The notes under the pieces are model-generated. The model did not search any database. It was not told the origin of the DNA and was given only the letters and a program-made list of their open reading frames with translations. Of a stretch of 49,713 nt of DNA, positions 20,097-47,741 are shown piece by piece. The stretch lies in sequence record NC_130088.1; one strand, given 5' to 3'. The DNA is from a phage. The translations under genes and the position numbers were made by a program. Position 1 is the first letter of the stretch. Each line of letters starts with the position of its first letter.

Positions 20097-20135
20097 AATG
20101 CCCTGGCTTAACGGTCGGGGCATTTGTTTTCTTTT
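20097..20135 (+). terminator. Putative terminator after J (stem AATGCCC/GGGCATT plus T-rich tail)
   Basis: 7-bp stem, 14-nt loop, TGTTTTCTTTTG tail. Confidence 0.35.
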
Positions 20136-20487
20136 GTTCCATGATGTTCACAACTTAATCCGGCGTAAAATTGAAAACGTCTTGATAACAAAAAGAACAA
20201 ATGAAATATCTATATAATAACATACACTTAGAGTTTAATTATTATTATATATATCTATTTGTATTCTTCTTGTTTCTATTGTTCTCTATGGTTTGTGGTT
20301 GTTGTGTGTTTTGTATTGGTTGATGGTTATATATCACATGGTATGTATTTATATATGGTATGCGGCGTAAATGCGTGAACAATGTAACACAAAAACAACA
20401 ATCAGTAAAATCATAAACTTACGATGTGATTTTGTTGTCAGTGCCTACTTTGAACGTATGCAAAACAAAAAGAACACATAAAACATA

Positions 20488-20515
20488 TTGACTACATGAA
20501 ACATTCGCATATAAT
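20488..20515 (+). promoter_or_regulatory. Near-consensus sigma70 promoter TTGACT-16-TATAAT (early promoter A)
   Basis: Hexamers read directly; A-rich UP-like tract upstream; precedes the exonuclease gene. Confidence 0.7.
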
Positions 20516-20543
20516 GCAGACATACCAACGAGAGGATGACCAA

Positions 20544-21599
20544 ATGAGCGATTTTAAAGTTTACACCTTTGACCAGTTAACCAACGGTGAATATCACGAT
20601 CCGAAAGGCTGGGCGGCTGAATACGTTAGCGGTTCAAGCCTGGCAGAAATCTTTGCAAGTTGTCCGGCAGCATGGAAATACAGACCACGCGAGGAAAGCA
20701 AAGCGCTTGTTTTCGGTACGCAGTCACACACAAACTTCCAGAGTAGTGAGCTATTCGCAAAAGAGTACCGCAGAGCGCCAGCGCCGGAAGATTATGAAAA
20801 CCTGATTACGAGCCAGGCAGCATTGGCAGCGAAATTAAAATCTTTTGGCCTGACTGGTACAAGCGGTAAAACGTATCCAGATCTGATTAAGATGATGGTT
20901 GATTGTGGTGAGGATCTAAATGTGCAATGGCTCATTGAAATGATCGCAGAAAGCCAGGCGCGAGCGGATAACGTTGAATTGGTTCCGGCTAAAGATTACG
21001 ACGCTTGCGTTACCATGCGCCGCGTACTGGAAAGCATACCTGAACACAACGCTTGCATGAATAGCCCAACAGCACAACGCGAGCTATCAATTTTCGGCAC
21101 TATAAAAGGCGTGAAAGTCAAAGTAAGGCTTGACCATGTTGATATTTGCAAGGATGTGCTTGCAACGGTGATTTCCGGCTATGACGGTGAAGGGAATCCG
21201 GTTTATGAAACCACGCGATTTGATGAAGCGATTGTGATCACTGATTATAAAACAACGTCAAGCGCTAACCCGTCAGAGTTTGCAAGGCTGGCATTCAATC
21301 ACGGATACTACTTGAAAATGGCATTGCAGCATGACCTATTCAAGAAAGCGTATCCAGAAGAAACGCGCCCCGTAGTAGTCAGATTGCTGGCGCAGGAAAA
21401 GAAAGAGCCTTATTTACCGATTGCATACCGCATGACAGACGAACAATTGAAGATCGGACGTCTGCAATACATGAGCGTTATCAACCAGTTTGCAGAATGC
21501 CAGGCTAATGACGTTTGGCCTTCATATGCAAACGGTGAGCCGGAAATTGACCTGCAAACGCCTGATTGGGTACGCAGACAATACAAAGGTTTTTTATAA
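20544..21599 (+). CDS. Putative recombination exonuclease (PD-(D/E)XK-type)
   Basis: 351 aa; D..D(V) and ITDYKT motifs consistent with a PD-(D/E)XK nuclease; followed by Erf-like and SSB genes. Confidence 0.5.
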   Translation: MSDFKVYTFDQLTNGEYHDPKGWAAEYVSGSSLAEIFASCPAAWKYRPREESKALVFGTQSHTNFQSSELFAKEYRRAPAPEDYENLITSQAALAAKLKSFGLTGTSGKTYPDLIKMMVDCGEDLNVQWLIEMIAESQARADNVELVPAKDYDACVTMRRVLESIPEHNACMNSPTAQRELSIFGTIKGVKVKVRLDHVDICKDVLATVISGYDGEGNPVYETTRFDEAIVITDYKTTSSANPSEFARLAFNHGYYLKMALQHDLFKKAYPEETRPVVVRLLAQEKKEPYLPIAYRMTDEQLKIGRLQYMSVINQFAECQANDVWPSYANGEPEIDLQTPDWVRRQYKGFL

Positions 21600-21600
21600 A

Positions 21601-21642
21601 TAGCACTTTTTGCTAAAACAGCCATTCGATGCGTGGTATACT
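21601..21642 (+). promoter_or_regulatory. Conserved 19-bp box plus -10-like TATACT (class-2 promoter-like unit)
   Basis: TAGCACTTTTTGCTAAAAC, 21-nt gap, TATACT. Confidence 0.5.
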
Positions 21643-25701: not shown

Positions 25702-26628
25702 TTATAATAAGTCACTTGCCTTGTAAAGCCTCCGCTCTATTCCATTTTTGAATTTACCGTTAATTGGTAACATTACGTCTAATTCGCGATCATCAGCAGC
25801 AATCAAAGTATCGCGATCATTAGCATGGCACACAACGCGCATTTTGCGATCACCTTTGTAGCGATACGCTACTATTTCAAGATTCGACGCAGAAAAACAA
25901 GCCCACACCTCTTGTCCAGTTGCCAAGTGGATGTGTTGCGCATCAATCCAATCAACGCAAAGGTAAATTGTTTTGTCAGTCTTGCCAGTTACTGCAACAG
26001 AGCCTCGCGTATAATCCTTAGCGTAAAAACTGCTTTGACCTTCCTCATTGACGAAAAGAATATTACACATATCATCGTCCAATTCATCACTATGCACTAG
26101 GTGGCAAGGAATGGCGTGAATATGTTCGCAATATCCGTTGTCGTGAGTTTTTACGCCAACTTGATACGATTCGCCGCCTAATGGATAAAACGCCTCAAAA
26201 ACGCTTAGATTTGTTATTTCCATGCGTTCAGTTTTATCCATAACCTCAACACATTTTTCATGAGTTGCTTGCGATCCGAAATTGTAACCGGAGTCACGTT
26301 TTGCCGCTTTGTTAGCCTTGTTGACAACCTCAACCGGAACCAGGTTTAACCATTCGCCTAGAGTGTCGATTGCTTCACTGTAATTTTCACCACGTATGCG
26401 CATGAATAATCCGATCCCTGAATCATTCCCGCATTGGTTGCAAATGTTGCCGCCGTCGCCTTTCTCGTTGATTTTGTCCGTCCATCTGAAACGGTCTTTA
26501 CCTCCACAATAAGGGCATGGTTGATGCTTTCCGTTAAAGGTTAATTGAGGAATATCACAAAGTTTCATCAATGCCGCTTGCCACATTCCGCGCATCTTTG
26601 GGATCACTTCTTCTTTCTGGTAATGCAT
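25702..26628 (-). CDS. DNA primase (zinc-ribbon plus TOPRIM-like)
   Basis: CPYCGG..C..C zinc ribbon at N-terminus, acidic DxD-like motifs later; GGAGG SD. Confidence 0.6.
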   Translation of the reverse strand: MHYQKEEVIPKMRGMWQAALMKLCDIPQLTFNGKHQPCPYCGGKDRFRWTDKINEKGDGGNICNQCGNDSGIGLFMRIRGENYSEAIDTLGEWLNLVPVEVVNKANKAAKRDSGYNFGSQATHEKCVEVMDKTERMEITNLSVFEAFYPLGGESYQVGVKTHDNGYCEHIHAIPCHLVHSDELDDDMCNILFVNEEGQSSFYAKDYTRGSVAVTGKTDKTIYLCVDWIDAQHIHLATGQEVWACFSASNLEIVAYRYKGDRKMRVVCHANDRDTLIAADDRELDVMLPINGKFKNGIERRLYKASDLL

Positions 26629-26687: not shown

Positions 26688-27296
26688 TTAGCAATCAGTG
26701 CTATCGACGGAAATCACAACGCGTTTCTTCTGATTGGCTTCCTTTGCTTTGCGCCGTTCTTCTTTCGCCTTATCGCGTTCAGCTTTGCGCCGCGCTTTCT
26801 CCTTCTCGCGTTCTTCTGGACTCATAGACCGCAACGGATCGTAAGGCCGCACAAATCCTCTTGCTTCCGCCTCCTCTTTGGTTACAAATCGCATCAGCTT
26901 TCTGTTGCTGCAACGATTCTCTAATGGCTTGCCGTTATTATCAAATTTGATATCTGGACGGCAATATGAAGCGCGGAAGCCGTTAAAACCTTTGCGTCTG
27001 TAATCTTTCTGGATCAGTTCAGCGCCTTTAGTTGAAATCATGCCGCGCTCTTTCCATCCCCATACTGTTTTAAGGTTAACGCCAATTTCACGCGCCAGGG
27101 CAGCGCAACCGCCATAAGCGCTAACCACTTCATCAAGCCTAGCTTTTAATCCTGCCCTTACTTCTTCCTTTAGTACCAGATAACCGCTAACAGGTGCGCG
27201 GCGCTTCCTGTCTTTACCACGCCTTACGCCGTTGTTACCATTGATTGTGCGTTTGTCGATTTCTCCCGTTGAGGCCGCAATTTTGATTTCGCTCAT
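26688..27296 (-). CDS. HTH DNA-binding protein with basic Lys/Arg/Glu-rich C-terminal tail
   Basis: HTH-like segment GGCAALAREIGVNLKTVWGW; AGGTGA SD; divergent from helicase gene. Confidence 0.45.
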   Translation of the reverse strand: MSEIKIAASTGEIDKRTINGNNGVRRGKDRKRRAPVSGYLVLKEEVRAGLKARLDEVVSAYGGCAALAREIGVNLKTVWGWKERGMISTKGAELIQKDYRRKGFNGFRASYCRPDIKFDNNGKPLENRCSNRKLMRFVTKEEAEARGFVRPYDPLRSMSPEEREKEKARRKAERDKAKEERRKAKEANQKKRVVISVDSTDC

Positions 27297-27307
27297 ATTT
27301 TCACCTA

Positions 27308-27349
27308 TAGCACTTTTTGCTAAAACTATTGAGTAAGTTTGTGTATGAT
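27308..27349 (+). promoter_or_regulatory. Conserved 19-bp box plus TATGAT (class-2 unit) upstream of helicase
   Basis: TAGCACTTTTTGCTAAAAC, 21-nt gap, TATGAT. Confidence 0.5.
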
Positions 27350-27384
27350 ATGGTGCAAATGGCATTTAGTCAAAAGGATAAGTA

Positions 27385-29360: not shown

Positions 29361-29768
29361 ATGGTTACTGATAAAGGCGATTATCTGGAGTATTACGACA
29401 AATCAGATCCAGATGACAGAAAAGAGGAAGCGCACCAGGTTGATTCTTATTCATGGTTAACATATGAGTTTCCAATGTGGCTTGTTTGGCACACTAAAAA
29501 CGAAGGGAAGAAAACAATAGGCACAGCAGTAAAGGATCAGCAAGCAGGTGTAAAAAAGGGAGTAAGCGACATTCTAATCCTGACTGGTTTTATTGGCTGC
29601 AAATATGCATTCATTGCAATTGAGCTTAAACGAGCCAACAAGAAAGGAACTAAAGTAAGCCAGGAACAAAGGGAATTCTTGCGCCGCGTTAGGGAATGCG
29701 GAGGATTTGCCGCAGTATGCTATGGTGTAGATCAAGTAAAATTGGCTATCGCAGACGCTACAAAATAG
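29361..29768 (+). CDS. VRR-NUC domain nuclease
   Basis: 135 aa; D..IELK PD-(D/E)XK-like core; directly follows helicase. Confidence 0.55.
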   Translation: MVTDKGDYLEYYDKSDPDDRKEEAHQVDSYSWLTYEFPMWLVWHTKNEGKKTIGTAVKDQQAGVKKGVSDILILTGFIGCKYAFIAIELKRANKKGTKVSQEQREFLRRVRECGGFAAVCYGVDQVKLAIADATK

Positions 29769-29808
29769 CACTTTTTGTTAAAACAGGCGCGACGGAATGC
29801 GCCATAAT
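29766..29808 (+). promoter_or_regulatory. Conserved 19-bp box plus CATAAT (class-2 unit)
   Basis: Box starts at the TAG stop of the upstream gene. Confidence 0.5.
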
Positions 29809-30861: not shown

Positions 30862-31092
30862 ATGAGCATTCGATTAGCCGATCACATGAAATGGGATTTA
30901 TTTGTCGGTATGACAATTCGCTTACTTGATAAGCATGGTTATAACGATGATAAAATGGAGTTGATAAACTGCCTGGATATGACATTTGACGAAATCAAAG
31001 TTGCGCCTTTGTACATGTGGGAAAGAAAAATTGAGCACGACCTGATACAATACAAACGCAGAGAGGGCGCACGATTTTTCAATGTGAAATAG
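30862..31092 (+). CDS. Hypothetical protein
   Basis: 76 aa, overlapping start/stop with dam. Confidence 0.4.
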   Translation: MSIRLADHMKWDLFVGMTIRLLDKHGYNDDKMELINCLDMTFDEIKVAPLYMWERKIEHDLIQYKRREGARFFNVK

Positions 31093-31142
31093 CACTTTTT
31101 GTTAAAACCCGCTACGGCGGGTTTTGTATTATGTGCTTAACG
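31090..31142 (+). promoter_or_regulatory. Conserved 19-bp box plus hairpin plus TATTAT (class-2 unit)
   Basis: Box begins at the TAG stop; CCCGC..GCGGG hairpin in spacer. Confidence 0.5.
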
Positions 31143-34237: not shown

Positions 34238-34280
34238 ACTATACCCGATACAAGATCGGGTGTTTTAACAAAAAGTGCTA
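34238..34280 (-). promoter_or_regulatory. Conserved 19-bp box plus TATAGT (class-2 unit, minus strand)
   Basis: Box/gap/-10 read on minus strand; CATCGAAAC leader follows. Confidence 0.5.
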
Positions 34281-34475
34281 TTCGAATTTTCTTACGTGAA
34301 TAAGCAATTCACCATCTTGATTTGTCAGTTGATGCTCTTGATCTTCAAACGCTCTCATATCACTGTAAAGCAACAGCATTAGCGCATAGACAAAATCATC
34401 ATGCTGAATTTGCATTGCTGAACTTTCTTTCAAAATAAGATCTATCAAATGCTGGCTTGCTGAATAATTCTTCAT
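34278..34475 (-). CDS. Hypothetical protein (start uncertain)
   Basis: ORF overlapping the upstream gene end; may start at an internal ATG. Confidence 0.3.
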   Translation of the reverse strand: MKNYSASQHLIDLILKESSAMQIQHDDFVYALMLLLYSDMRAFEDQEHQLTNQDGELLIHVRKFE

Positions 34476-34793: not shown

Positions 34794-36374
34794 TTACCCC
34801 ATTAACGCCGGATTGACATAAACAAATTTACCCACGCTGCAAACATAATTCTTTTCTTCAAGCATTGGCAATAATTGTTCCTCAATTCGTTTCATCACGC
34901 CTGATTGACCTGTAAACGGCTTAACCTTACGCGCACTTTCATAGATAGCTCTTGCATTGGTAACGCCTTTATTTTGACGTGAGATCTTAATGATGATTTC
35001 AATTAACTTGCTCATTTCGGCATCATCGCCAGCGTGACCGGAAGCATTCGCGGCGTTGATATATGTTTTGCTTAATTCGCTGAACATCACCAAAGCCTCT
35101 TGCATTGTCTCAACTTCAATTTCTCGCGACTTTTGCGGCGTACCGTTTGGATTAAACCAATTGCGGATCGTGTGCAATACTGACGCAATGCGGATCACTT
35201 GCTTATCCATTTTACCCAAAGCACCACGCAACATTGTATGTGAATATTTCCCGCCGTCTGCTAAATCTGGCTCTAATTGCTGGCGAGCAATATTAAGAAC
35301 ACGCATTGCAGAACGTGACGGCTTCAATACCACATTTTGTTCAGTCATGATGTTATGAATCAACTGGAAATATTGCGCCTTTAATTCTTTATCAACTGGC
35401 GTGTAATCAAGATCACCATTTTCATCAATAAATACACGCTCTCCTAACATTGTTTTTTCACGTACAAGCAAGAAACGTTCACTAACACCAATACCACGCG
35501 CCCCTGCATCCATTATCCCTTTTATCGTTTCATCCTGGGCAATTACGCTCATGCAGCCCAACGCAACAAAACTCATATTATTTTCAGAGTTGGCGCGAGC
35601 TATTGAAACGTGTCCGGCGTCCCATGCTTTTAGAACCAATTCGCTGTTAGTCTTGCGATCACTGTTAGCGTAAGTCAATCCGAGTAAGCTGTTGATGCTT
35701 GTTGCTTCATCTGAAATGACAGCAAAGTTACCCTGGCGATTGTTGATCTTTGCTAAACCTTCCGGCGTGGTGTCTGATACCGGAAAAACGATATCGCACA
35801 TTTTTTCTAACTTTTCCTCTAATTCCTCCTTTTCCTCAAACAACGCCGCTAACTCAGTGCCGGAACGCTCAGCTTTCAATTCCTTTTCAACGCCTTTTAA
35901 TTTCGCTGCGATCTTCTTTCGCTCTTTCTTGCGTTGTTCGTTGATTCGCTCAACTTCACAGACCATTGGCGCAATAGCCAGGCTGTTGATTGCTGATTTA
36001 CCAGTTGATGGCGGCTGACTGGTTACAACATAAAGAGCCGTTGGTTGTTCAGTGTCGTGGTACTCAACTTGGAAGCGTCCAACCATAGCGGCGGAAACGC
36101 AACCTATGAAATGCATATAGGCCGATGATTCAGGAAATTGAACAGATTGCGCAATGCTACGTGACAGTTTACCCACAACATCAACATCATTACCCAAAGA
36201 GATCACAGGATAACGGTCATTAGCGCCGTTGATATCCTTCACAGGTTCCCAAAAGCTGGACGATTGGCGGTAGCCGTTCGACTGAATAGCAACGCGAAGC
36301 GGCGATGTTCCCTGCGATTCTGCAATGGCTATAACTTGTTGAGGTGTCAATTTGTTGGTGTCAAAGTCAAACAT
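34794..36374 (-). CDS. Large hypothetical protein (526 aa) with P-loop-like PPSTGKS segment
   Basis: AAGGAG SD; first gene after class-2 unit at 36402-36444; function not recognised. Confidence 0.5.
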   Translation of the reverse strand: MFDFDTNKLTPQQVIAIAESQGTSPLRVAIQSNGYRQSSSFWEPVKDINGANDRYPVISLGNDVDVVGKLSRSIAQSVQFPESSAYMHFIGCVSAAMVGRFQVEYHDTEQPTALYVVTSQPPSTGKSAINSLAIAPMVCEVERINEQRKKERKKIAAKLKGVEKELKAERSGTELAALFEEKEELEEKLEKMCDIVFPVSDTTPEGLAKINNRQGNFAVISDEATSINSLLGLTYANSDRKTNSELVLKAWDAGHVSIARANSENNMSFVALGCMSVIAQDETIKGIMDAGARGIGVSERFLLVREKTMLGERVFIDENGDLDYTPVDKELKAQYFQLIHNIMTEQNVVLKPSRSAMRVLNIARQQLEPDLADGGKYSHTMLRGALGKMDKQVIRIASVLHTIRNWFNPNGTPQKSREIEVETMQEALVMFSELSKTYINAANASGHAGDDAEMSKLIEIIIKISRQNKGVTNARAIYESARKVKPFTGQSGVMKRIEEQLLPMLEEKNYVCSVGKFVYVNPALMG

Positions 36375-37081: not shown

Positions 37082-37124
37082 ATTATGCCGGATACGTGAT
37101 CCGGCGTTTTAACAAAAAGTGCTA
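37082..37124 (-). promoter_or_regulatory. Conserved 19-bp box plus hairpin plus CATAAT (class-2 unit, minus strand)
   Basis: GCCGGAT..ATCCGGC hairpin in spacer. Confidence 0.5.
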
Positions 37125-37817
37125 TTTCTGATTTGCCAGGCATACAGCAAGCGCAAAGCCGCGCGGAGTGAGTGAGCGGATCAGCTTTGTTCGCTTAGAC
37201 TTGCCGCCGAGCTTTTGCCAGCCTGGATTGTTGTTCCCTGTTGGCAATACTGCGTTTGTATCCGGCATTACAAAGCCGTTACCCGTCCAAAGACAAGTTT
37301 TTTTGGTGTACGCATCGCGAGCGGGAATGATTTCAGGAAAGTGAGGATGTTTATCATCTTCCGGCAACAGACCTCCAAACGCGCAAGGATGAAAGATAAA
37401 ATCAGGTTGCCGCCACATTGACGACAGAACACTAACAGGATTCTCAATCATATATGGAACGTTAAACCGATCCGCAATATTGGCAGCAATCTTTGCCGTT
37501 TCAACCGCCTTTTTCTGGAAGTCTGGATCACGTTCACGCTTTGCTGCAAAGTGACGCGATCCGCTAACAGCTAAATCAGTGCATGGAGGGAATGCAATAA
37601 TAAAATCTGGAGTGCCAAAGACGCGCATCATTGCGTTATGCTGGAATGATAATCCGATCCACTCATTCAAATAAACGATGTTGGGATGAGTCACGCGCAC
37701 TGATTGGTAATCACCATGATCAGCACCGTCGAAATTAAAGCACAGCACTTTGTGACCACGTTCAGCCCACGGCAACGCAGCATAACCAGAACCATCAAAT
37801 AGTGAGAAAATAAGCAT
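37122..37817 (-). CDS. Putative DNA cytosine-5 methyltransferase-like protein
   Basis: FDGSG (motif I-like), FPPC (PC catalytic motif-like), ENP (ENV-like); start set at internal ATG with AAAGGA SD; unusually short for this family. Confidence 0.4.
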   Translation of the reverse strand: MLIFSLFDGSGYAALPWAERGHKVLCFNFDGADHGDYQSVRVTHPNIVYLNEWIGLSFQHNAMMRVFGTPDFIIAFPPCTDLAVSGSRHFAAKRERDPDFQKKAVETAKIAANIADRFNVPYMIENPVSVLSSMWRQPDFIFHPCAFGGLLPEDDKHPHFPEIIPARDAYTKKTCLWTGNGFVMPDTNAVLPTGNNNPGWQKLGGKSKRTKLIRSLTPRGFALAVCLANQK

Positions 37818-39232: not shown

Positions 39233-39275
39233 ATTATGCCAAAACAAACCGGATCGCTTTTAACAAAAAGTGCTA
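39233..39275 (-). promoter_or_regulatory. Conserved 19-bp box plus CATAAT (class-2 unit, minus strand)
   Basis: Box/gap/-10, CATCGAAAC leader. Confidence 0.5.
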
Positions 39276-39377
39276 TTTAATTAAAATACGAATACCTTTT
39301 CGCACGCTTTCCGTCGCCTCCGTAATGGTCATTAGCAACAGCAAGAATCCAAGCGTTAGGAATAAAAAATAGCTTCA

Positions 39378-40051: not shown

Positions 40052-40094
40052 ATTATATCAAGATACCCCGATCCGGTTTTAACAAAAAATGCTA
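40052..40094 (-). promoter_or_regulatory. Conserved 19-bp box plus TATAAT inside a hairpin loop (class-2 unit, minus strand)
   Basis: GGGGTA..TACCCC stem around the -10. Confidence 0.5.
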
Positions 40095-40095
40095 T

Positions 40096-40561: not shown

Positions 40562-40604
40562 ATCATAGCAATTCGTGACTGATTGGTTTTAACAAAAAGT
40601 GCTA
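40562..40604 (-). promoter_or_regulatory. Conserved 19-bp box plus TATGAT (class-2 unit, minus strand), first unit of the leftward operon
   Basis: Box/gap/-10, CATCGAAAC leader. Confidence 0.5.
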
Positions 40605-40613
40605 TTCATGCAG

Positions 40614-40643
40614 TAGACCGATTGGTCTAGACCGTTTGGTCTA
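40614..40643. promoter_or_regulatory. Operator-like composite palindrome TAGACC-gatt-GGTCTAGACC-gttt-GGTCTA
   Basis: Three GGTCTA half-sites in alternating orientation; a fourth GGTCTA at about 41086. Confidence 0.4.
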
Positions 40644-40700
40644 ATGAACGCATCGTTTTGTGTATCGAACGCATTCATGATCCTGTTACGTGATCGTTAT

Positions 40701-40781
40701 ATGATCAGATGATGATTGATGTGTGAGATTTTGTGATTGAAATTGATTTGATTTGATTAGATTTGAGTAGTGAGTGAGTAG
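40701..40781. repeat. Iteron-like array of short direct repeats (GATT / TGATTGA / GTGAGT units) in AT-rich DNA
   Basis: Direct reading; no ORF. Confidence 0.5.
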
Positions 40782-41247
40782 AAATAATCACACCTTGCCG
40801 ATCAGTGAAAACTTTTCCCGCAAAACATCACTCCAGGCTACGCGCTGTTATCTTCCGTTCATGGGTGTTCACAAATCTATCCGGCGTAGTTCTCCGACGG
40901 TTCTATGTGTTAGCCACACAAAAAGAACAAAATAAAACTCTATATAATAATAATTAAAACAGTAAGTTATCTATATATATGTATTTATTTGTTTCTATAC
41001 TGTTTCTAATGTTCCATATGGTTAGTGGTGGGTGATATATTGTTGATGGTGGTATTTGGTTAATATTTAGCCTATTGCGCCTGGTCTAGTGGTGGATTGA
41101 GAAAAATATATTTATATATAGGAATCCGCGAAAATTCATGAACGTATGAACAGCCAAAGAACGCGTTTTCAATTTCAAGTAAAACATTCACTTACGCTGA
41201 AAATTTGTTCCACTATAGGTATGGAACGTAAGCACACAAAAAACTAC

Positions 41248-41276
41248 TTGACGAGAACAAATGGCGGCGATAATAT
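41248..41276 (+). promoter_or_regulatory. Sigma70-like promoter TTGACG-17-TAATAT (early promoter B)
   Basis: Hexamers read directly; leader and SD paralogous to promoter A. Confidence 0.65.
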
Positions 41277-41312
41277 GCCACAACGAACTAACCAACAGGA
41301 GGATAACCAATC

Positions 41313-41762
41313 ATGGCAACTACCAAAGAGTTTTGCGACAGCTTGCGTGAACTGGCGAAGAAGTTAGCAAGCGGAGAGCTTGATAATTACATCATTGCCG
41401 ATGCTCTTATCGAGGACAATCTCGACGAGCAAGACCGGAAGAAGGTCAACGCCTCATACATTCGCACGATCATGAATCGCGTCCCTGACGTGAAGGAGAT
41501 CGGAACGGTTTCAATTACTCGCACTGATCCGGTTGAGGAAGCGCCAGGGTTTAAGGTGGCAATCAACCGCGAGGCAAAGCGACAGGTATTCACAAAAAAT
41601 GATATTCCTGCACTGGAAAAGCGGATCGGTGAGCGAATCGCCAAGCGACTGCTAAACACAATGCCAAATATCACGGATCTGGAAGGTGAACAACTCCAGG
41701 GCGCGGCAATAGGAATTAAACGTTATCAGGATCTGATTAAGTCATTTGCAACGGGGGAATAA
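41313..41762 (+). CDS. Hypothetical protein
   Basis: 149 aa, SD AGGAGG. Confidence 0.5.
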   Translation: MATTKEFCDSLRELAKKLASGELDNYIIADALIEDNLDEQDRKKVNASYIRTIMNRVPDVKEIGTVSITRTDPVEEAPGFKVAINREAKRQVFTKNDIPALEKRIGERIAKRLLNTMPNITDLEGEQLQGAAIGIKRYQDLIKSFATGE

Positions 41763-42224: not shown

Positions 42225-42247
42225 CGGATTACATCCTGATTGGTAAA

Positions 42248-42290
42248 TAGCACTTTTTGTTAAAACTCAATTGGGGTGGTTTGGCATAAT
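42248..42290 (+). promoter_or_regulatory. Conserved 19-bp box plus CATAAT (class-2 unit)
   Basis: Box/gap/-10, CATCGAAAC leader. Confidence 0.5.
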
Positions 42291-45019: not shown

Positions 45020-45205
45020 ATGCTTACTGCTTTTTTAATTTTGATTGTCATTATGCTTTACGTTTGCGGCGCTTTCCTGATGCGAGCGCTACTAAAAGAG
45101 GCTGACGCTGATGATAAGGATAGTTGGAAGCCGATTATTTTATGGCCTGGATATATCATCGTGCCGATTTACGAACTAATCCGCGATGGTGAGTTTAAGT
45201 GGTAA
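45020..45205 (+). CDS. Small membrane protein
   Basis: 61 aa, N-terminal TM helix. Confidence 0.4.
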   Translation: MLTAFLILIVIMLYVCGAFLMRALLKEADADDKDSWKPIILWPGYIIVPIYELIRDGEFKW

Positions 45206-45206
45206 A

Positions 45207-45249
45207 TAGCACTTTTTGCTAAAACTTGCTAAGGCACATTTGATAAAGT
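45207..45249 (+). promoter_or_regulatory. Conserved 19-bp box plus TAAAGT inside a hairpin (class-2 unit)
   Basis: GGCACA..TGTGCC stem. Confidence 0.5.
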
Positions 45250-47203: not shown

Positions 47204-47701
47204 ATGAAAGCTAAAAATGATTTTTATAACTACCTGACAAAAGGCCGTGACTATACCGTTTTGAATAGCATAGATACTCTTTACCTGGTTGTTGCTGATA
47301 ATGGCGTTAGAGTTTGGCTTGATAAAACTCTTTTCGAAAGCGAGCACCTAAGTAACGCAAAGCGGATCGCAGATGAAGCAAGCGCATTAGCAGAGCGTGA
47401 ACGAATTCGCGATATAGTAGCGGAGCAGGTTAGAAATTCATGTTCACCTGGTGGCGATATCTTCAAATCAATGCGCGGTGAAATGACGGTTGGAATTCAA
47501 GATCGCGTAATTTCAAAGTCAGTTGATTCTGTAATTGAGAATGCGCGATTCAATGCGTTGATTAACTCAGAGCATAACGAATACGTCAAAGTATTAGAGC
47601 AACTGCGTGAAGTGCTGCGAGTGCCGGAAGGTGAAAATATAGTGACTCATGCAAAGGTTGTAAGAGCGTTGGCTGATGCGCTGATTGGCCTGCAAAAATA
47701 G
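47204..47701 (+). CDS. Hypothetical protein
   Basis: 165 aa, SD AAGGAG. Confidence 0.5.
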   Translation: MKAKNDFYNYLTKGRDYTVLNSIDTLYLVVADNGVRVWLDKTLFESEHLSNAKRIADEASALAERERIRDIVAEQVRNSCSPGGDIFKSMRGEMTVGIQDRVISKSVDSVIENARFNALINSEHNEYVKVLEQLREVLRVPEGENIVTHAKVVRALADALIGLQK

Positions 47702-47741
47702 CACTTTTTGTTAAAACTTCCGCGAGGGCATTTGTTAAAGT
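47699..47741 (+). promoter_or_regulatory. Conserved 19-bp box plus TAAAGT inside a hairpin (class-2 unit)
   Basis: Box starts at the TAG stop of the upstream gene. Confidence 0.5.

What the first reader, a model, noticed from the sequence alone, without database searches (positions are those of the whole stretch)
20139..20543. Early control region A is a diverged paralog of region B (40858-41312)
About 400 bp upstream of the exonuclease operon and about 450 bp upstream of the right-arm operon align block by block in the same orientation: CATGxTGTTCACAA..ATCCGGCGTA, CAAAAAGAACAAA..TCTATATAATAA, a GT-rich TTGTTTCTAT..GGTT.GTGGT tract, TATATATGG..GCG..AA.T..TGAAC, then the promoter, leader and SD (CCAACGAGAGGATGACCAA versus CCAACAGGAGGATAACCAA). 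Retention of two copies of a long non-coding module implies function beyond the core promoter.
Basis: seen in the sequence. Interest (0 to 1): 0.7.

Follow-up and report, generated by a model that had tools for sequence, protein, structure and literature searches.

The report
Twin iteron modules at early promoters
Two ~430-bp non-coding stretches of this T1-like phage are ancient duplicates built from short phased repeats around the most easily melted DNA in the genome, which makes them the best candidates so far for the family's unidentified replication origins, or failing that its early-gene control sites.

Summary
Region A (20125-20546) and region B (40845-41315) align collinearly, far above chance (local score 97 against 22±2.7 for shuffles), and there is no third copy. 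The window is a Tlsvirus phage (Drexlerviridae, 99.9% identical to Citrobacter phage Devorator). Every Tempevirinae genome examined carries exactly these two copies: A upstream of recE, B upstream of the right-arm early operon next to pac. T1 and a Webervirus have the same architecture with different short repeats.

Each module is an array of 7-bp iterons (TGTTnnn) phased at 9-10 bp, in opposed clusters around a (TA)n core. It also holds a direct repeat (CGGCGTAAA), IHF-like sites and an internal TATAAT box, and it ends in one of only three sigma-70 promoters predicted for these phages. In four genomes the two cores are the two least stable duplex segments.

There is no ORF, Rfam hit or conserved RNA fold. 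The phage encodes an MCM-like AAA+ helicase with a C-terminal winged helix, a primase related to P4 alpha, and a Cro-like protein.

Best reading (about 0.5): iteron-type replication origins for a self-loading helicase, helped by adjacent early transcription. Main rival (about 0.3): operator/enhancer arrays controlling the early promoters. Function was not tested.

The parts
20097..20124 (+). Intrinsic terminator of the tail-fibre operon. Its T-run runs into the first iterons of module A.
   Evidence: annotated as a terminator in phage Stevie and as T50 in TLS
20125..20151 (+). Module A left arm: three iterons (TGTTTTC, TGTTCCA, TGTTCAC) with a 10-bp period.
20158..20170 (+). Direct-repeat element, copy 1 (ATCCGGCGTAAAA).
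20184..20199 (-). Inverted iteron pair (GATAACAAAAAGAACA), lying where a -35 would be for the internal TATAAT.
   Evidence: (family D13)
20213..20218 (+). Internal TATAAT box in the context CTATATAAT, conserved from T1 to Tlsvirus. No -35 hexamer.
20205..20264 (.). (TA)n-rich core of A, one of the two least stable 60-bp duplex segments of the genome (DUE-like).
   Evidence: -57.3 kcal/mol; genome mean -80.9, sd 4.7
20270..20286 (+). Iteron pair (TTGTTTCTATTGTTCTC) on the right flank of the core, opposite in direction to 20184-20199.
20287..20328 (+). G+T-rich tract, variable in sequence and length between genera; contains the GGTTTGTGGT block.
20346..20358 (.). Second TA block (TATTTATATATGG).
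   Evidence: (TATTTATA in 6 of 6 modules, about 70-fold enriched)
20362..20372 (+). Direct-repeat element, copy 2 (GCGGCGTAAAT).
20375..20401 (-). Module A right arm: inverted iterons (GTGAACA, ATGTAACA, CAAAAACA, ACAACAA). It is the reverse complement of the left arm.
   Evidence: (reverse-strand self hit, E = 1e-6)
20409..20421 (+). IHF-like site (AATCATAAACTTA), one mismatch to WATCARNNNNTTR. The consensus is perfect at the same position in 8 of 14 A modules of relatives.
20461..20485 (-). Three inverted iterons forming an A-rich, UP-like element (AAAACAAAAAGAACACATAAAACA) that abuts the -35.
   Evidence: (D13)
20488..20515 (+). Early sigma-70 promoter of the recE operon (TTGACT-16-TATAAT), conserved throughout Drexlerviridae.
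   Evidence: equals P51 of TLS
20525..20546 (+). Leader, SD (GAGAGGA) and the likely true recE start codon (ATG 20544).
40586..40606 (-). 21-nt ATAGCAC..TTGnTAAAA motif serving the leftward operon. In other genera such a motif abuts the left arm of the module directly.
   Evidence: motif described in PMC11447400
40700..40790 (.). Short GATT/GTGA tandem repeats between the leftward motif and module B. Position 1 of the TLS record (pac assignment, AGATTT) maps here, at about 40727.
   Evidence: module B lies at 120-518 in TLS locus L052
40845..40872 (+). Module B left arm: iterons TGTTATC, CGTTCAT, TGTTCAC with a 10-bp period.
40879..40890 (+). Direct-repeat element, copy 1 of B (ATCCGGCGTAGT).
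40915..40931 (-). Inverted iteron block (CACACAAAAAGAACAAA).
   Evidence: (D13)
40943..40948 (+). Internal TATAAT box of B.
40929..40988 (.). (TA)n-rich core of B, the least stable 60-bp duplex segment of the genome.
   Evidence: -57.2 kcal/mol
40989..41016 (+). Three iterons (TGTTTCT, TGTTTCT, TGTTCCA) on the right flank of the core.
41017..41108 (+). G+T-rich tract of B, with TGGTGG three times and a 30-nt insertion relative to A that carries TGGTCTAGTGG.
41109..41121 (.). Second TA block of B.
41124..41134 (+). Direct-repeat element, copy 2 of B (ATCCGCGAAAA).
41138..41153 (-). Module B right arm: inverted iterons (ATGAACG, TATGAACAG).
41182..41194 (+). IHF-like block of B (AAACATTCACTTA), degenerate.
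41248..41276 (+). Early sigma-70 promoter of the right-arm operon (TTGACG-17-TAATAT).
   Evidence: equals P01 of TLS
41292..41315 (+). Leader, SD and start codon of the first right-arm gene (ATG 41313).
34794..36374 (-). Candidate trans factor: DUF3987 protein, predicted to be an MCM-like AAA+ helicase with a C-terminal winged helix.
25702..26628 (-). Candidate trans factor: primase homologous to the N-terminal primase domain of P4 alpha.
   Evidence: blastp 7e-14
26688..27296 (-). Candidate trans factor: Cro-like HTH protein in an operon with the primase, driven by the third sigma-70 promoter (27373-27345, minus strand).
   Evidence: P57 of TLS

Best explanation
A and B are two copies of an ancient cis-acting module on which a nucleoprotein complex assembles. 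Most likely they are the phage's origins of DNA replication, of the iteron type served by a self-loading helicase.

**Proposed mechanism**
1. Host RNA polymerase fires the near-consensus early promoter at the right end of each module. In most genera a divergent promoter also fires from the left end. This transcription makes the early proteins and drives negative supercoils back into the module.
2. A phage-encoded, lineage-specific DNA-binding protein binds the 7-bp iterons. The best candidate is the winged helix of the MCM-like helicase gp44; the alternative is the Cro-like gp29. The iterons are phased at one helical turn and point in opposite directions on the two sides of the (TA)n core. IHF-like sites would help to bend the DNA.
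3. The core, the least stable DNA in the genome, melts. Helicase is loaded on both sides.
4. The P4-alpha-like primase primes synthesis, or a transcript from the internal TATAAT box does, and host polymerase III extends.

**Shown here:** the duplication, the anatomy, the conservation, the stability minima, the protein folds, and the recurrence of this architecture next to DUF3987 replication genes in unrelated phages.

**Inferred:** who binds the iterons, that melting and helicase loading occur there, and why there are two copies (two origins as in SPP1 oriL/oriR, or an origin plus an enhancer as in P4 ori/crr).
For: **Anatomy**
- TGTT-type iterons recur at 9-10 bp (95 pairs against about 6 expected) and at 19-20 bp.
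- They form opposed arms and opposed pairs flanking the AT core.

**Duplex stability**
- In this window, W011D, haarsle and T1, the two module cores are the two least stable 60- and 100-bp segments of the whole genome.
- They lie about 5 sd from the mean and well clear of the third-ranked segment. The Sushi B region shows the same.

**Lineage-specific iterons**
- The architecture is family-wide but the iteron changes with phage lineage, not with host: TGTTCAC-type in Tempevirinae, TGTWACA/GATTAC in T1, TTTGTGG in Webervirus.
- This is expected for a co-evolving initiator-origin pair.

**Candidate trans factors**
- The helix-loop-helix of that domain is 44% identical to T1, against 64% for the AAA+ core. 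It is 82% identical within Tempevirinae.
- The primase is homologous to the P4 alpha primase domain.

**Match to a known origin type**
- The SaPI origin rule fits: short iterons, an AT-rich centre, at least two iterons per side in opposite directions, and a Rep protein with a C-terminal winged helix (PMC9371898).

**Recurrence in unrelated phages**
- Three distant phages with DUF3987 homologues (37-38% identity) each have an iteron / (TA)n / iteron region.
- Each has its own iterons, and the region is the least stable DNA of the locus. It sits at the head of the operon that holds the helicase.

**Literature**
- No origin has been identified in T1-like phages.
Against: - No replication data of any kind were available here.
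- The module is always fused to an early promoter, and one iteron cluster abuts the -35. A purely transcriptional role is therefore just as natural.
- In Drexlerviridae neither copy is adjacent to gp44. SaPI origins lie next to rep.
- The conserved iteron core is short (TGTT) and degenerate. In T1 the A and B iterons differ from each other.
- The binder was not identified. The winged-helix divergence is only suggestive.
- A perfectly conserved internal TATAAT suggests a promoter as much as a melting site.
- AT-rich, curved, IHF-bound DNA is also typical upstream of strong phage promoters.
- The regions in distant phages are also divergent early-promoter regions, so their recurrence does not separate the two models cleanly.
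Confidence: 0.5

Rival explanations
1. The modules are transcriptional control regions only. The arrays would be operators or enhancer sites through which a phage early protein (for example the Cro-like gp29) shuts off or modulates the two early promoters. An UP-like A-rich element and IHF bending would give high initial activity. This would be a virulent-phage counterpart of lambda OL/OR.
For: - The modules sit at two of the only three predicted sigma-70 promoters.
- Three iterons, or A-tracts, occupy about -40 to -65.
- IHF consensus sites are conserved about 77 bp and about 257 bp upstream of the -35 hexamer in many relatives.
- gp29 homologues carry P22_Cro/YdaS HTH domains, and gp29 is expressed from the third early promoter.
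- Two paralogous operator regions at the early promoters is exactly the lambda design.
Against: - The promoters are near consensus and must fire before any phage protein exists, so they need no activation.
- No iteron cluster overlaps the -35/-10 or the start site, where repressors normally act.
- About 350 bp with two opposed arms around the genome's least stable DNA is far more than shut-off requires.
- The third early promoter has no such module.
- The same architecture heads DUF3987 replication operons in unrelated phages.
Confidence: 0.3
2. The module holds extra promoters and/or a non-coding transcript. The conserved internal TATAAT, with the iteron pair standing in for a -35, would be an activator-dependent promoter. 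It would produce a GU-rich RNA or a second, later transcript of the downstream operon.
For: - CTCTATATAAT is conserved from T1 to Tlsvirus in both copies.
- The iteron pair covers the -35 position.
- This layout resembles T4 middle promoters, and also the T4 oriF/oriG design (from memory).
Against: - There is no -35 hexamer.
- Rfam gives no hit.
- RNAalifold finds no conserved pair in 12 modules.
- The plus-strand fold is no better than shuffles, z = -0.8.
- The tract downstream of the box varies in sequence and length between genera.
- This reading is compatible with the origin model as primer or activating transcription, so it is not a true exclusive rival.
Confidence: 0.1
3. The modules serve packaging or DNA entry. 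They would be recognition or pause sites related to pac or to DNA injection, since B lies next to the mapped pac site.
For: Position 1 of the TLS record, assigned to pac by restriction mapping, lies about 120 bp left of module B.
Against: - A lies in the middle of the genome, far from pac, and only one pac fragment was seen in TLS.
- The pac-proximal repeats (40700-40790) lie outside the region shared by A and B.
Confidence: 0.04
4. The similarity is chance similarity of AT-rich DNA, or the remains of a mobile element (MITE) with terminal inverted repeats.
For: - The modules have low-complexity TA and GT tracts.
- They have roughly 28-bp inverted arms.
Against: - z = 28 against dinucleotide shuffles.
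- Both copies are at fixed, syntenic positions across genera.
- A and B are only 59-67% identical within a genome, there are no target-site duplications, and nothing similar is found in plasmids or E. coli genomes.
Confidence: 0.02

Closest known systems
SaPI replication origins with Rep self-loading helicases (Staphylococcus pathogenicity islands)
   Same: - Short iterons (5-7 nt), six or more per origin.
- An AT-rich centre.
- At least two iterons on each side, pointing in opposite directions.
- Initiator specificity that varies between lineages.
- A AAA+ helicase with a C-terminal winged helix (PMC9371898).
   Different: - Here there are two copies per genome, each about 430 bp.
- Each is fused to a sigma-70 early promoter, and neither is adjacent to the helicase gene.
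- The helicase is of the DUF3987/MCM-like family rather than the SaPI Rep family.
- Binding was not shown.
Satellite phage P4 ori and crr with alpha protein
   Same: - Two separate cis elements.
- Octamer iterons (TGTTCACC) at 10-11 bp spacing in both orientations, nearly the same word as TGTTCAC(A) here.
- The phage primase is homologous to the alpha primase domain (7e-14).
   Different: - There is no significant alignment of A or B with P4 ori or crr.
- No alpha-like fused primase-helicase-origin-binding protein is present, and gp44 shows no sequence similarity to alpha.
- The iteron is degenerate, and T1 and Webervirus use other words.
Bacillus phage SPP1 oriL and oriR (from memory; not checked with tools)
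   Same: A pac-type siphovirus with two homologous origin copies, far apart, each with initiator-binding repeats next to an AT-rich region.
   Different: - The initiator is of a different kind (G38P).
- One SPP1 origin lies inside the initiator gene.
- There is no fusion to early promoters.
T4 oriF/oriG and the T7 primary origin (from memory)
   Same: A promoter followed by an easily unwound AT-rich element. Here the internal TATAAT is followed at once by the least stable DNA.
   Different: Those origins have no iteron arrays, and their transcripts are shown to prime. Here no transcript has been shown.
Lambda OL/OR early control regions
   Same: Two paralogous regulatory arrays at the two early promoters, with a Cro-like protein encoded.
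   Different: - Lambda operators are 17-bp pseudo-palindromes that overlap the core promoters.
- Here 7-bp phased iterons lie upstream of the -35 and surround a melting-prone core.

Membership tests
Iteron-type origin of a self-loading helicase (SaPI-like) | Multiple short iterons on both sides of an AT-rich region, at least two per side, in opposite directions | tested here: met
   A has inverted iterons at 20187 and 20196, the core at 20205-20264, and forward iterons at 20271 and 20280, plus the outer opposed arms. B has 40926, the core, then 40990, 41001 and 41010.
Iteron-type origin of a self-loading helicase (SaPI-like) | AT-rich centre of low helical stability (DNA unwinding element) | tested here: met
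   The two cores are the two global stability minima in four genomes.
Iteron-type origin of a self-loading helicase (SaPI-like) | Cognate helicase-initiator with a C-terminal winged-helix DNA-binding domain | tested here: inconclusive
   The fold is predicted (MCM-like AAA+ plus winged helix), and the winged helix diverges where the iterons differ. Binding to the iterons is not testable here.
Iteron-type origin of a self-loading helicase (SaPI-like) | Origin located next to the initiator gene | tested here: not met
   gp44 is at 34794-36374, about 14 kb from A and 4.5 kb from B. The feature is met in distant DUF3987 phages.
Iteron-type origin of a self-loading helicase (SaPI-like) | Replication initiates there, or the element supports replication in trans | not testable with these tools
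   This needs marker-frequency analysis, 2D gels or origin-plasmid assays.
P4 ori/crr system | Type-1 iteron TGTTCACC in multiple copies | tested here: inconclusive
   TGTTCAC occurs at 20145, 20375 (minus strand) and 40866; the other iterons are degenerate TGTTnnn. The P4 repeats were verified from the record.
P4 ori/crr system | Alpha-type fused primase-helicase-origin-binding protein | tested here: not met
   Only the primase domain has a homologue (gp28, 7e-14). gp44 is unrelated in sequence.
P4 ori/crr system | Sequence homology of the cis elements | tested here: not met
   Local alignments of A and B against P4 ori and crr fall within the range of shuffles.
Sigma-70 early promoter with UP element and IHF enhancer | Near-consensus -35/-10 with 16-18 bp spacing | tested here: met
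   TTGACT-16-TATAAT and TTGACG-17-TAATAT, conserved family-wide.
Sigma-70 early promoter with UP element and IHF enhancer | IHF consensus site WATCARNNNNTTR upstream | tested here: inconclusive
   The window copies have 1-2 mismatches. The consensus is perfect at the aligned positions in many relatives.
Lambda-type duplicated operator regions | Operators overlapping the core promoter; palindromic sites for a dimeric repressor/Cro | tested here: not met
   The iterons are 7-bp units, mostly in direct arrays upstream of the -35.
Structured non-coding RNA | Rfam family match or a conserved secondary structure with covariation | tested here: not met
   No Rfam hit. RNAalifold gives 0 pairs in 12 modules. 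The plus-strand fold has z = -0.8.
MITE / mobile element | Terminal inverted repeats with target-site duplication, and near-identical dispersed copies | tested here: not met
   Inverted arms exist, but the copies are 59-67% identical, sit at fixed syntenic positions, and are absent from plasmids and E. coli genomes.

The most novel reading that the evidence does not exclude
The modules are dual-purpose switches. They would be the phage's two replication origins, and loading of the MCM-like helicase (or its partner) on the iterons that abut the -35 would also shut off the early promoter. The onset of DNA replication would then itself trigger the early-to-middle transition. Lineage-specific iteron/winged-helix pairs would define 'replicon specificity groups' within Drexlerviridae and in other phages with DUF3987 helicases.
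Probability: 0.15. Interest if true: 0.8.

Novelty: new variant of a known kind. Interest (0 to 1): 0.62.

Why it matters
- **An open question becomes testable.** T1 is one of the original Delbrück phages, yet the replication origin and the early regulatory logic of T1-like phages have never been defined. The 2024 TLS re-annotation and other genome papers state that no origin was found.
- **Two precise candidate elements.** This analysis gives two elements per genome, a repeat grammar, and candidate binding proteins. The question can now be addressed by coverage profiling, origin-plasmid assays and EMSA.
- **Possible wider reach.** The same grammar (own iterons, a (TA)n core, own iterons) at the head of DUF3987 replication operons in unrelated phages suggests a general way to predict origins for a widespread, uncharacterised helicase family.
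- **Practical use.** These are the regions to keep or to swap when engineering Drexlerviridae for therapy or as cloning and containment tools.

Tried and rejected
- **Viral-contig pattern scan.** TATATRTATYTATTTGT was too low in complexity.
- **Flanking-protein searches for B.** Searches with gp58 and gp57 returned 3-4 loci, because the genes around B vary. B copies were collected instead through BLAST hits and whole genomes.
- **Rfam at gathering thresholds on the whole window.** Nothing.
- **RNA folding.**
  - The plus strand folds no better than shuffles.
  - The minus strand gives z = -3.7. This comes from the inverted iteron arms and the TA palindromes.
  - RNAalifold on 12 modules gives no pairs, so a structured RNA was dropped.
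- **Strict IHF consensus.** No perfect match in the window's modules, only in relatives.
- **gp44 against PDB sequences.** No hit. The fold search was needed.
- **P4 ori/crr against the modules.** No significant alignment, so homology to P4 origins was dropped and only a motif-level resemblance is kept.
- **Module against plasmids and E. coli genomes.** No match.
- **gp29 recognition helix against iteron type.** Differences exist but are not informative with four sequences.
- **GC skew.** It follows gene orientation only and says nothing about origins.
- **Literature.** Searches for T1-like transcription start sites or origin mapping found no relevant data. The Rtp genome paper is not held.

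Full report
**Context**

The window is 99.9% identical to Citrobacter phage vB_CfrD_Devorator (Drexlerviridae, Tempevirinae, Tlsvirus), a virulent T1-like siphovirus.
- Region A fills the gap between the tail-fibre gene with its terminator (20097-20124) and the recE-erf-ssb operon.
- Region B is the right part of the 780-bp divergent intergenic region between the leftward operon, which ends at about 40566, and the rightward operon of small genes, which starts at 41313.
- Neither region holds an ORF longer than 53 codons.

**Observation check**

- The local alignment score of A against B is 97. Dinucleotide shuffles give 22.2±2.7 (z = 28). The best match to A anywhere else in the window is B.
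- A profile built from recE-upstream regions of 11 phages finds B over model positions 8-350 (E = 5e-29) and finds no third copy.
- The promoter/leader/SD resemblance is real but is shared with other leaders of this phage. The specific paralogy is the roughly 350 bp upstream.

**Anatomy of module A** (B is collinear)

| Element | Coordinates | Sequence or note |
|---|---|---|
| Left arm, three iterons, 10-bp period | 20125-20151 | TGTTTTC, TGTTCCA, TGTTCAC |
| Direct repeat, copy 1 | 20158-20170 | ATCCGGCGTAAAA |
| Inverted iteron pair | 20184-20199 | GATAACAAAAAGAACA |
| Internal TATAAT | 20213-20218 | no -35; the iteron pair lies where a -35 would be |
| (TA)n core | 20205-20264 | least stable DNA |
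| Forward iteron pair | 20270-20286 | TTGTTTCTATTGTTCTC |
| G+T-rich tract | to about 20328 | variable between genera |
| Second TA block | 20346-20358 | TATTTATATATGG |
| Direct repeat, copy 2 | 20362-20372 | GCGGCGTAAAT |
| Right arm, inverted iterons | 20375-20401 | reverse complement of the left arm |
| IHF-like site | 20409-20421 | one mismatch to the consensus |
| Three inverted iterons / A-tracts | 20461-20485 | abut the -35 |
| Promoter | 20488-20515 | TTGACT-16-TATAAT |

Across 20 non-redundant modules, same-strand TGTT..TGTT spacings pile up at 9-10 bp (57 + 38 pairs against about 3 expected for each spacing). They pile up again at 19-20 bp. These counts are inflated by shared ancestry, but the phasing is unmistakable.

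**Comparative evidence**

Every Tempevirinae genome examined has exactly two full-length copies, at the same two positions. This covers Tlsvirus, Changchunvirus W011D, several Hanrivervirus phages, unclassified phages and two metagenomic contigs.

| Comparison | Identity |
|---|---|
| A copies within a genus | 91-97% |
| A copies between genera | 55-65% |
| B copies between phages that differ at B, even within a genus | 49-68% (89% for SFP17 and B1.3) |
| A against B in this phage | 67% over the model columns |
| This phage's B against A copies of other genera | 53-58% |

- Within a genus, A is as well conserved as the flanking genes.
- The A-B figure for this phage suggests some co-evolution or gene conversion.
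- In genera other than Tlsvirus, the left arm of A abuts a leftward copy of the 21-nt ATAGCAC..TTGnTAAAA motif. The ancestral module therefore sat between divergent transcription units, as B still does.
- T1 and other Tunavirinae keep the same layout at both positions: about 450-700 bp of non-coding DNA, a central CTCTATATAAT..(TA)n, repeat clusters in both orientations, and a TTGAC promoter. Their repeats differ (TGTWACA, GATTAC, three tandem CGATTAACA).
- Klebsiella phage Sushi (Webervirus) uses TTTGTGG/CCACAAA.
- T1 and TLS-like phages share hosts and share the 21-nt motif. The changing iteron therefore points to a phage-encoded, lineage-specific binder, distinct from whatever reads the 21-nt motif.

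**Physical property**

A nearest-neighbour stability scan was run on four genomes: this window, W011D, haarsle and T1.
- In each, the two module cores are the two least stable 60- and 100-bp segments of the entire genome.
- In this window they score -57.2 and -57.3 kcal/mol. The genome mean is -80.9 (sd 4.7) and the next-ranked segment scores -66.6.

**What it is not**
- It is not coding.
- It is not a known RNA family.
- It is not a conserved RNA structure. RNAalifold finds no pair in 12 modules, and the plus-strand fold has z = -0.8.
- It is not a recent mobile element, and it is not present in plasmids or E. coli genomes.
- It is not homologous by alignment to P4 ori or crr.

**Candidate trans factors**
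- *gp29.* The P57 equivalent here (27373-27345, minus strand) drives a Cro-like HTH protein, followed by a primase. Homologues of gp29 carry P22_Cro/YdaS domains. The true gp29 start is probably 27296.
- *Primase.* It is homologous to the primase domain of P4 alpha (7e-14).
- *Winged-helix divergence.* The helix-loop-helix of that domain is 82% identical within Tempevirinae. It is only 44% identical to T1, against 64% for the AAA+ core. This fits a change of specificity but is weak evidence.

**Recurrence outside the family**

Three distant phages carry DUF3987 homologues at 37-38% identity.
- Each has a divergent intergenic region with its own iterons on both sides of a (TA)n core: GGGGGTA/CCCCCCA, ACACGCCCACG seven times, or TTTTGGGG with CCTTACCGGAA.
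- That core is the least stable DNA of the locus.
- The region sits at the head of the operon containing the helicase, an SNF2-type helicase, recombination genes and SSB.

**Interpretation**

The anatomy matches the published rule for origins served by self-loading helicases. That rule comprises short iterons, an AT-rich centre, at least two iterons on each side in opposite directions, and an initiator-helicase with a C-terminal winged helix (PMC9371898). The P4 record shows the same kind of grammar, with nearly the same word (TGTTCACC, 10-11 bp spacing, two cis elements).

I therefore favour replication origins at about 0.5. The adjacent, often divergent, early transcription would supply negative supercoiling and possibly a primer.

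The main rival, at about 0.3, is a purely transcriptional operator/enhancer array for the early promoters, analogous to lambda OL/OR with a Cro-like protein.
- For the rival: the fixed fusion to the promoters, the iteron/A-tract cluster abutting the -35, and the IHF-like sites.
- Against the rival: no sites overlap the core promoter, the third early promoter has no module, and the apparatus is far larger than shut-off needs.

The two readings are not exclusive. Nothing here measures function.

**Novelty**

The promoters and the 21-nt repeats are published. The ~430-bp duplicated module, its iteron grammar, its stability minima and its family-wide conservation were not found in any paper searched. 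Those papers state that the origin of T1-like phages is unknown. This is a new variant of a known kind of element (an iteron/DUE control region), and it is directly testable.

Noticed in passing
window, about 20 sites, e.g. 21599-21619, 29764-29784, 31088-31108, 42245-42265, 45204-45224, 47696-47716 (+); 34262-34282, 37106-37126, 39258-39278, 40078-40095, 40586-40606 (-): A 21-nt motif, AATAGCACnnnTTGnTAAAAC, always points the same way as the downstream genes. About 20 nt further on there is a TATAGT/TAAAGT-like box. The motif is already described for TLS (18 intergenic copies, function unknown). T1 has the same motif even though its module iterons differ, so the two repeat systems probably have different readers.
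   Followed up: partly
window 40618-40650 and 41083-41093: A perfect GGTCTAGACC palindrome and a neighbouring TTGGTCTAA resemble GntR/HutC-type operators. A related TGGTCTAGTGG lies in the 30-nt insertion that B has relative to A. The protein annotated 'GntR-family regulator' (47204-47701) gave no Pfam hit.
   Followed up: partly
window 40700-40790: Short tandem repeats (GATGATGATTGATG, GATTTGATTTGATTAGATTTGAG, GTGAGTGAGTAG) lie just left of module B. Position 1 of the TLS record (pac assigned at AGATTT) maps here. T1 and Sushi have comparable GATT/GTGATT repeats at the same place.
   Followed up: partly
window 20496-20543 and 27297-27365: Two annotated start codons in the Devorator record look too far upstream. 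The long recE ORF starts inside the promoter (-35 at 20488, -10 at 20510); the likely true start is ATG 20544 with SD GAGAGGA. The long gp29 ORF overlaps its own promoter (27373-27345); the likely true start is ATG 27296, matching T1.
   Followed up: partly
window 34794-36374 (-): The DUF3987 'hypothetical protein / helicase' is predicted with high confidence to be an MCM-like AAA+ helicase with a C-terminal winged helix. This gives a fold assignment for a widespread domain of unknown function.
   Followed up: yes
window 41026-41031, 41047-41052, 41090-41095 (+): Three TGGTGG words lie within 70 bp of the G+T tract of module B, spaced 21 and 43 bp apart. Each is a 7-of-8 match to Chi (GCTGGTGG). 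Webervirus uses TTTGTGG as its iteron, so these may be a second class of repeat.
   Followed up: no
L049 1252-1815 (IMG/VR contig of 53145 nt): In this relative, module A is split by an insertion of about 210 bp in the G+T-rich tract (model positions 2-206 and 227-366 are found separately). That tract therefore tolerates large insertions.
   Followed up: no
(hmmalign identity matrices); L052, L005, L177, L183: Module B evolves much faster than module A, or is exchanged much more often. B copies are only 49-68% identical between phages whose A copies are 91-97% identical. The variable first genes of the right-arm operon show the same pattern.
   Followed up: partly
phage records MG065636-MG065680 ('Campylobacter phage', UNVERIFIED) and OR786094 ('Streptococcus phage MBBL140'): These records carry Tempevirinae/Tlsvirus modules and genes. 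They are probably coliphage-type contaminants or mislabelled hosts.
   Followed up: no
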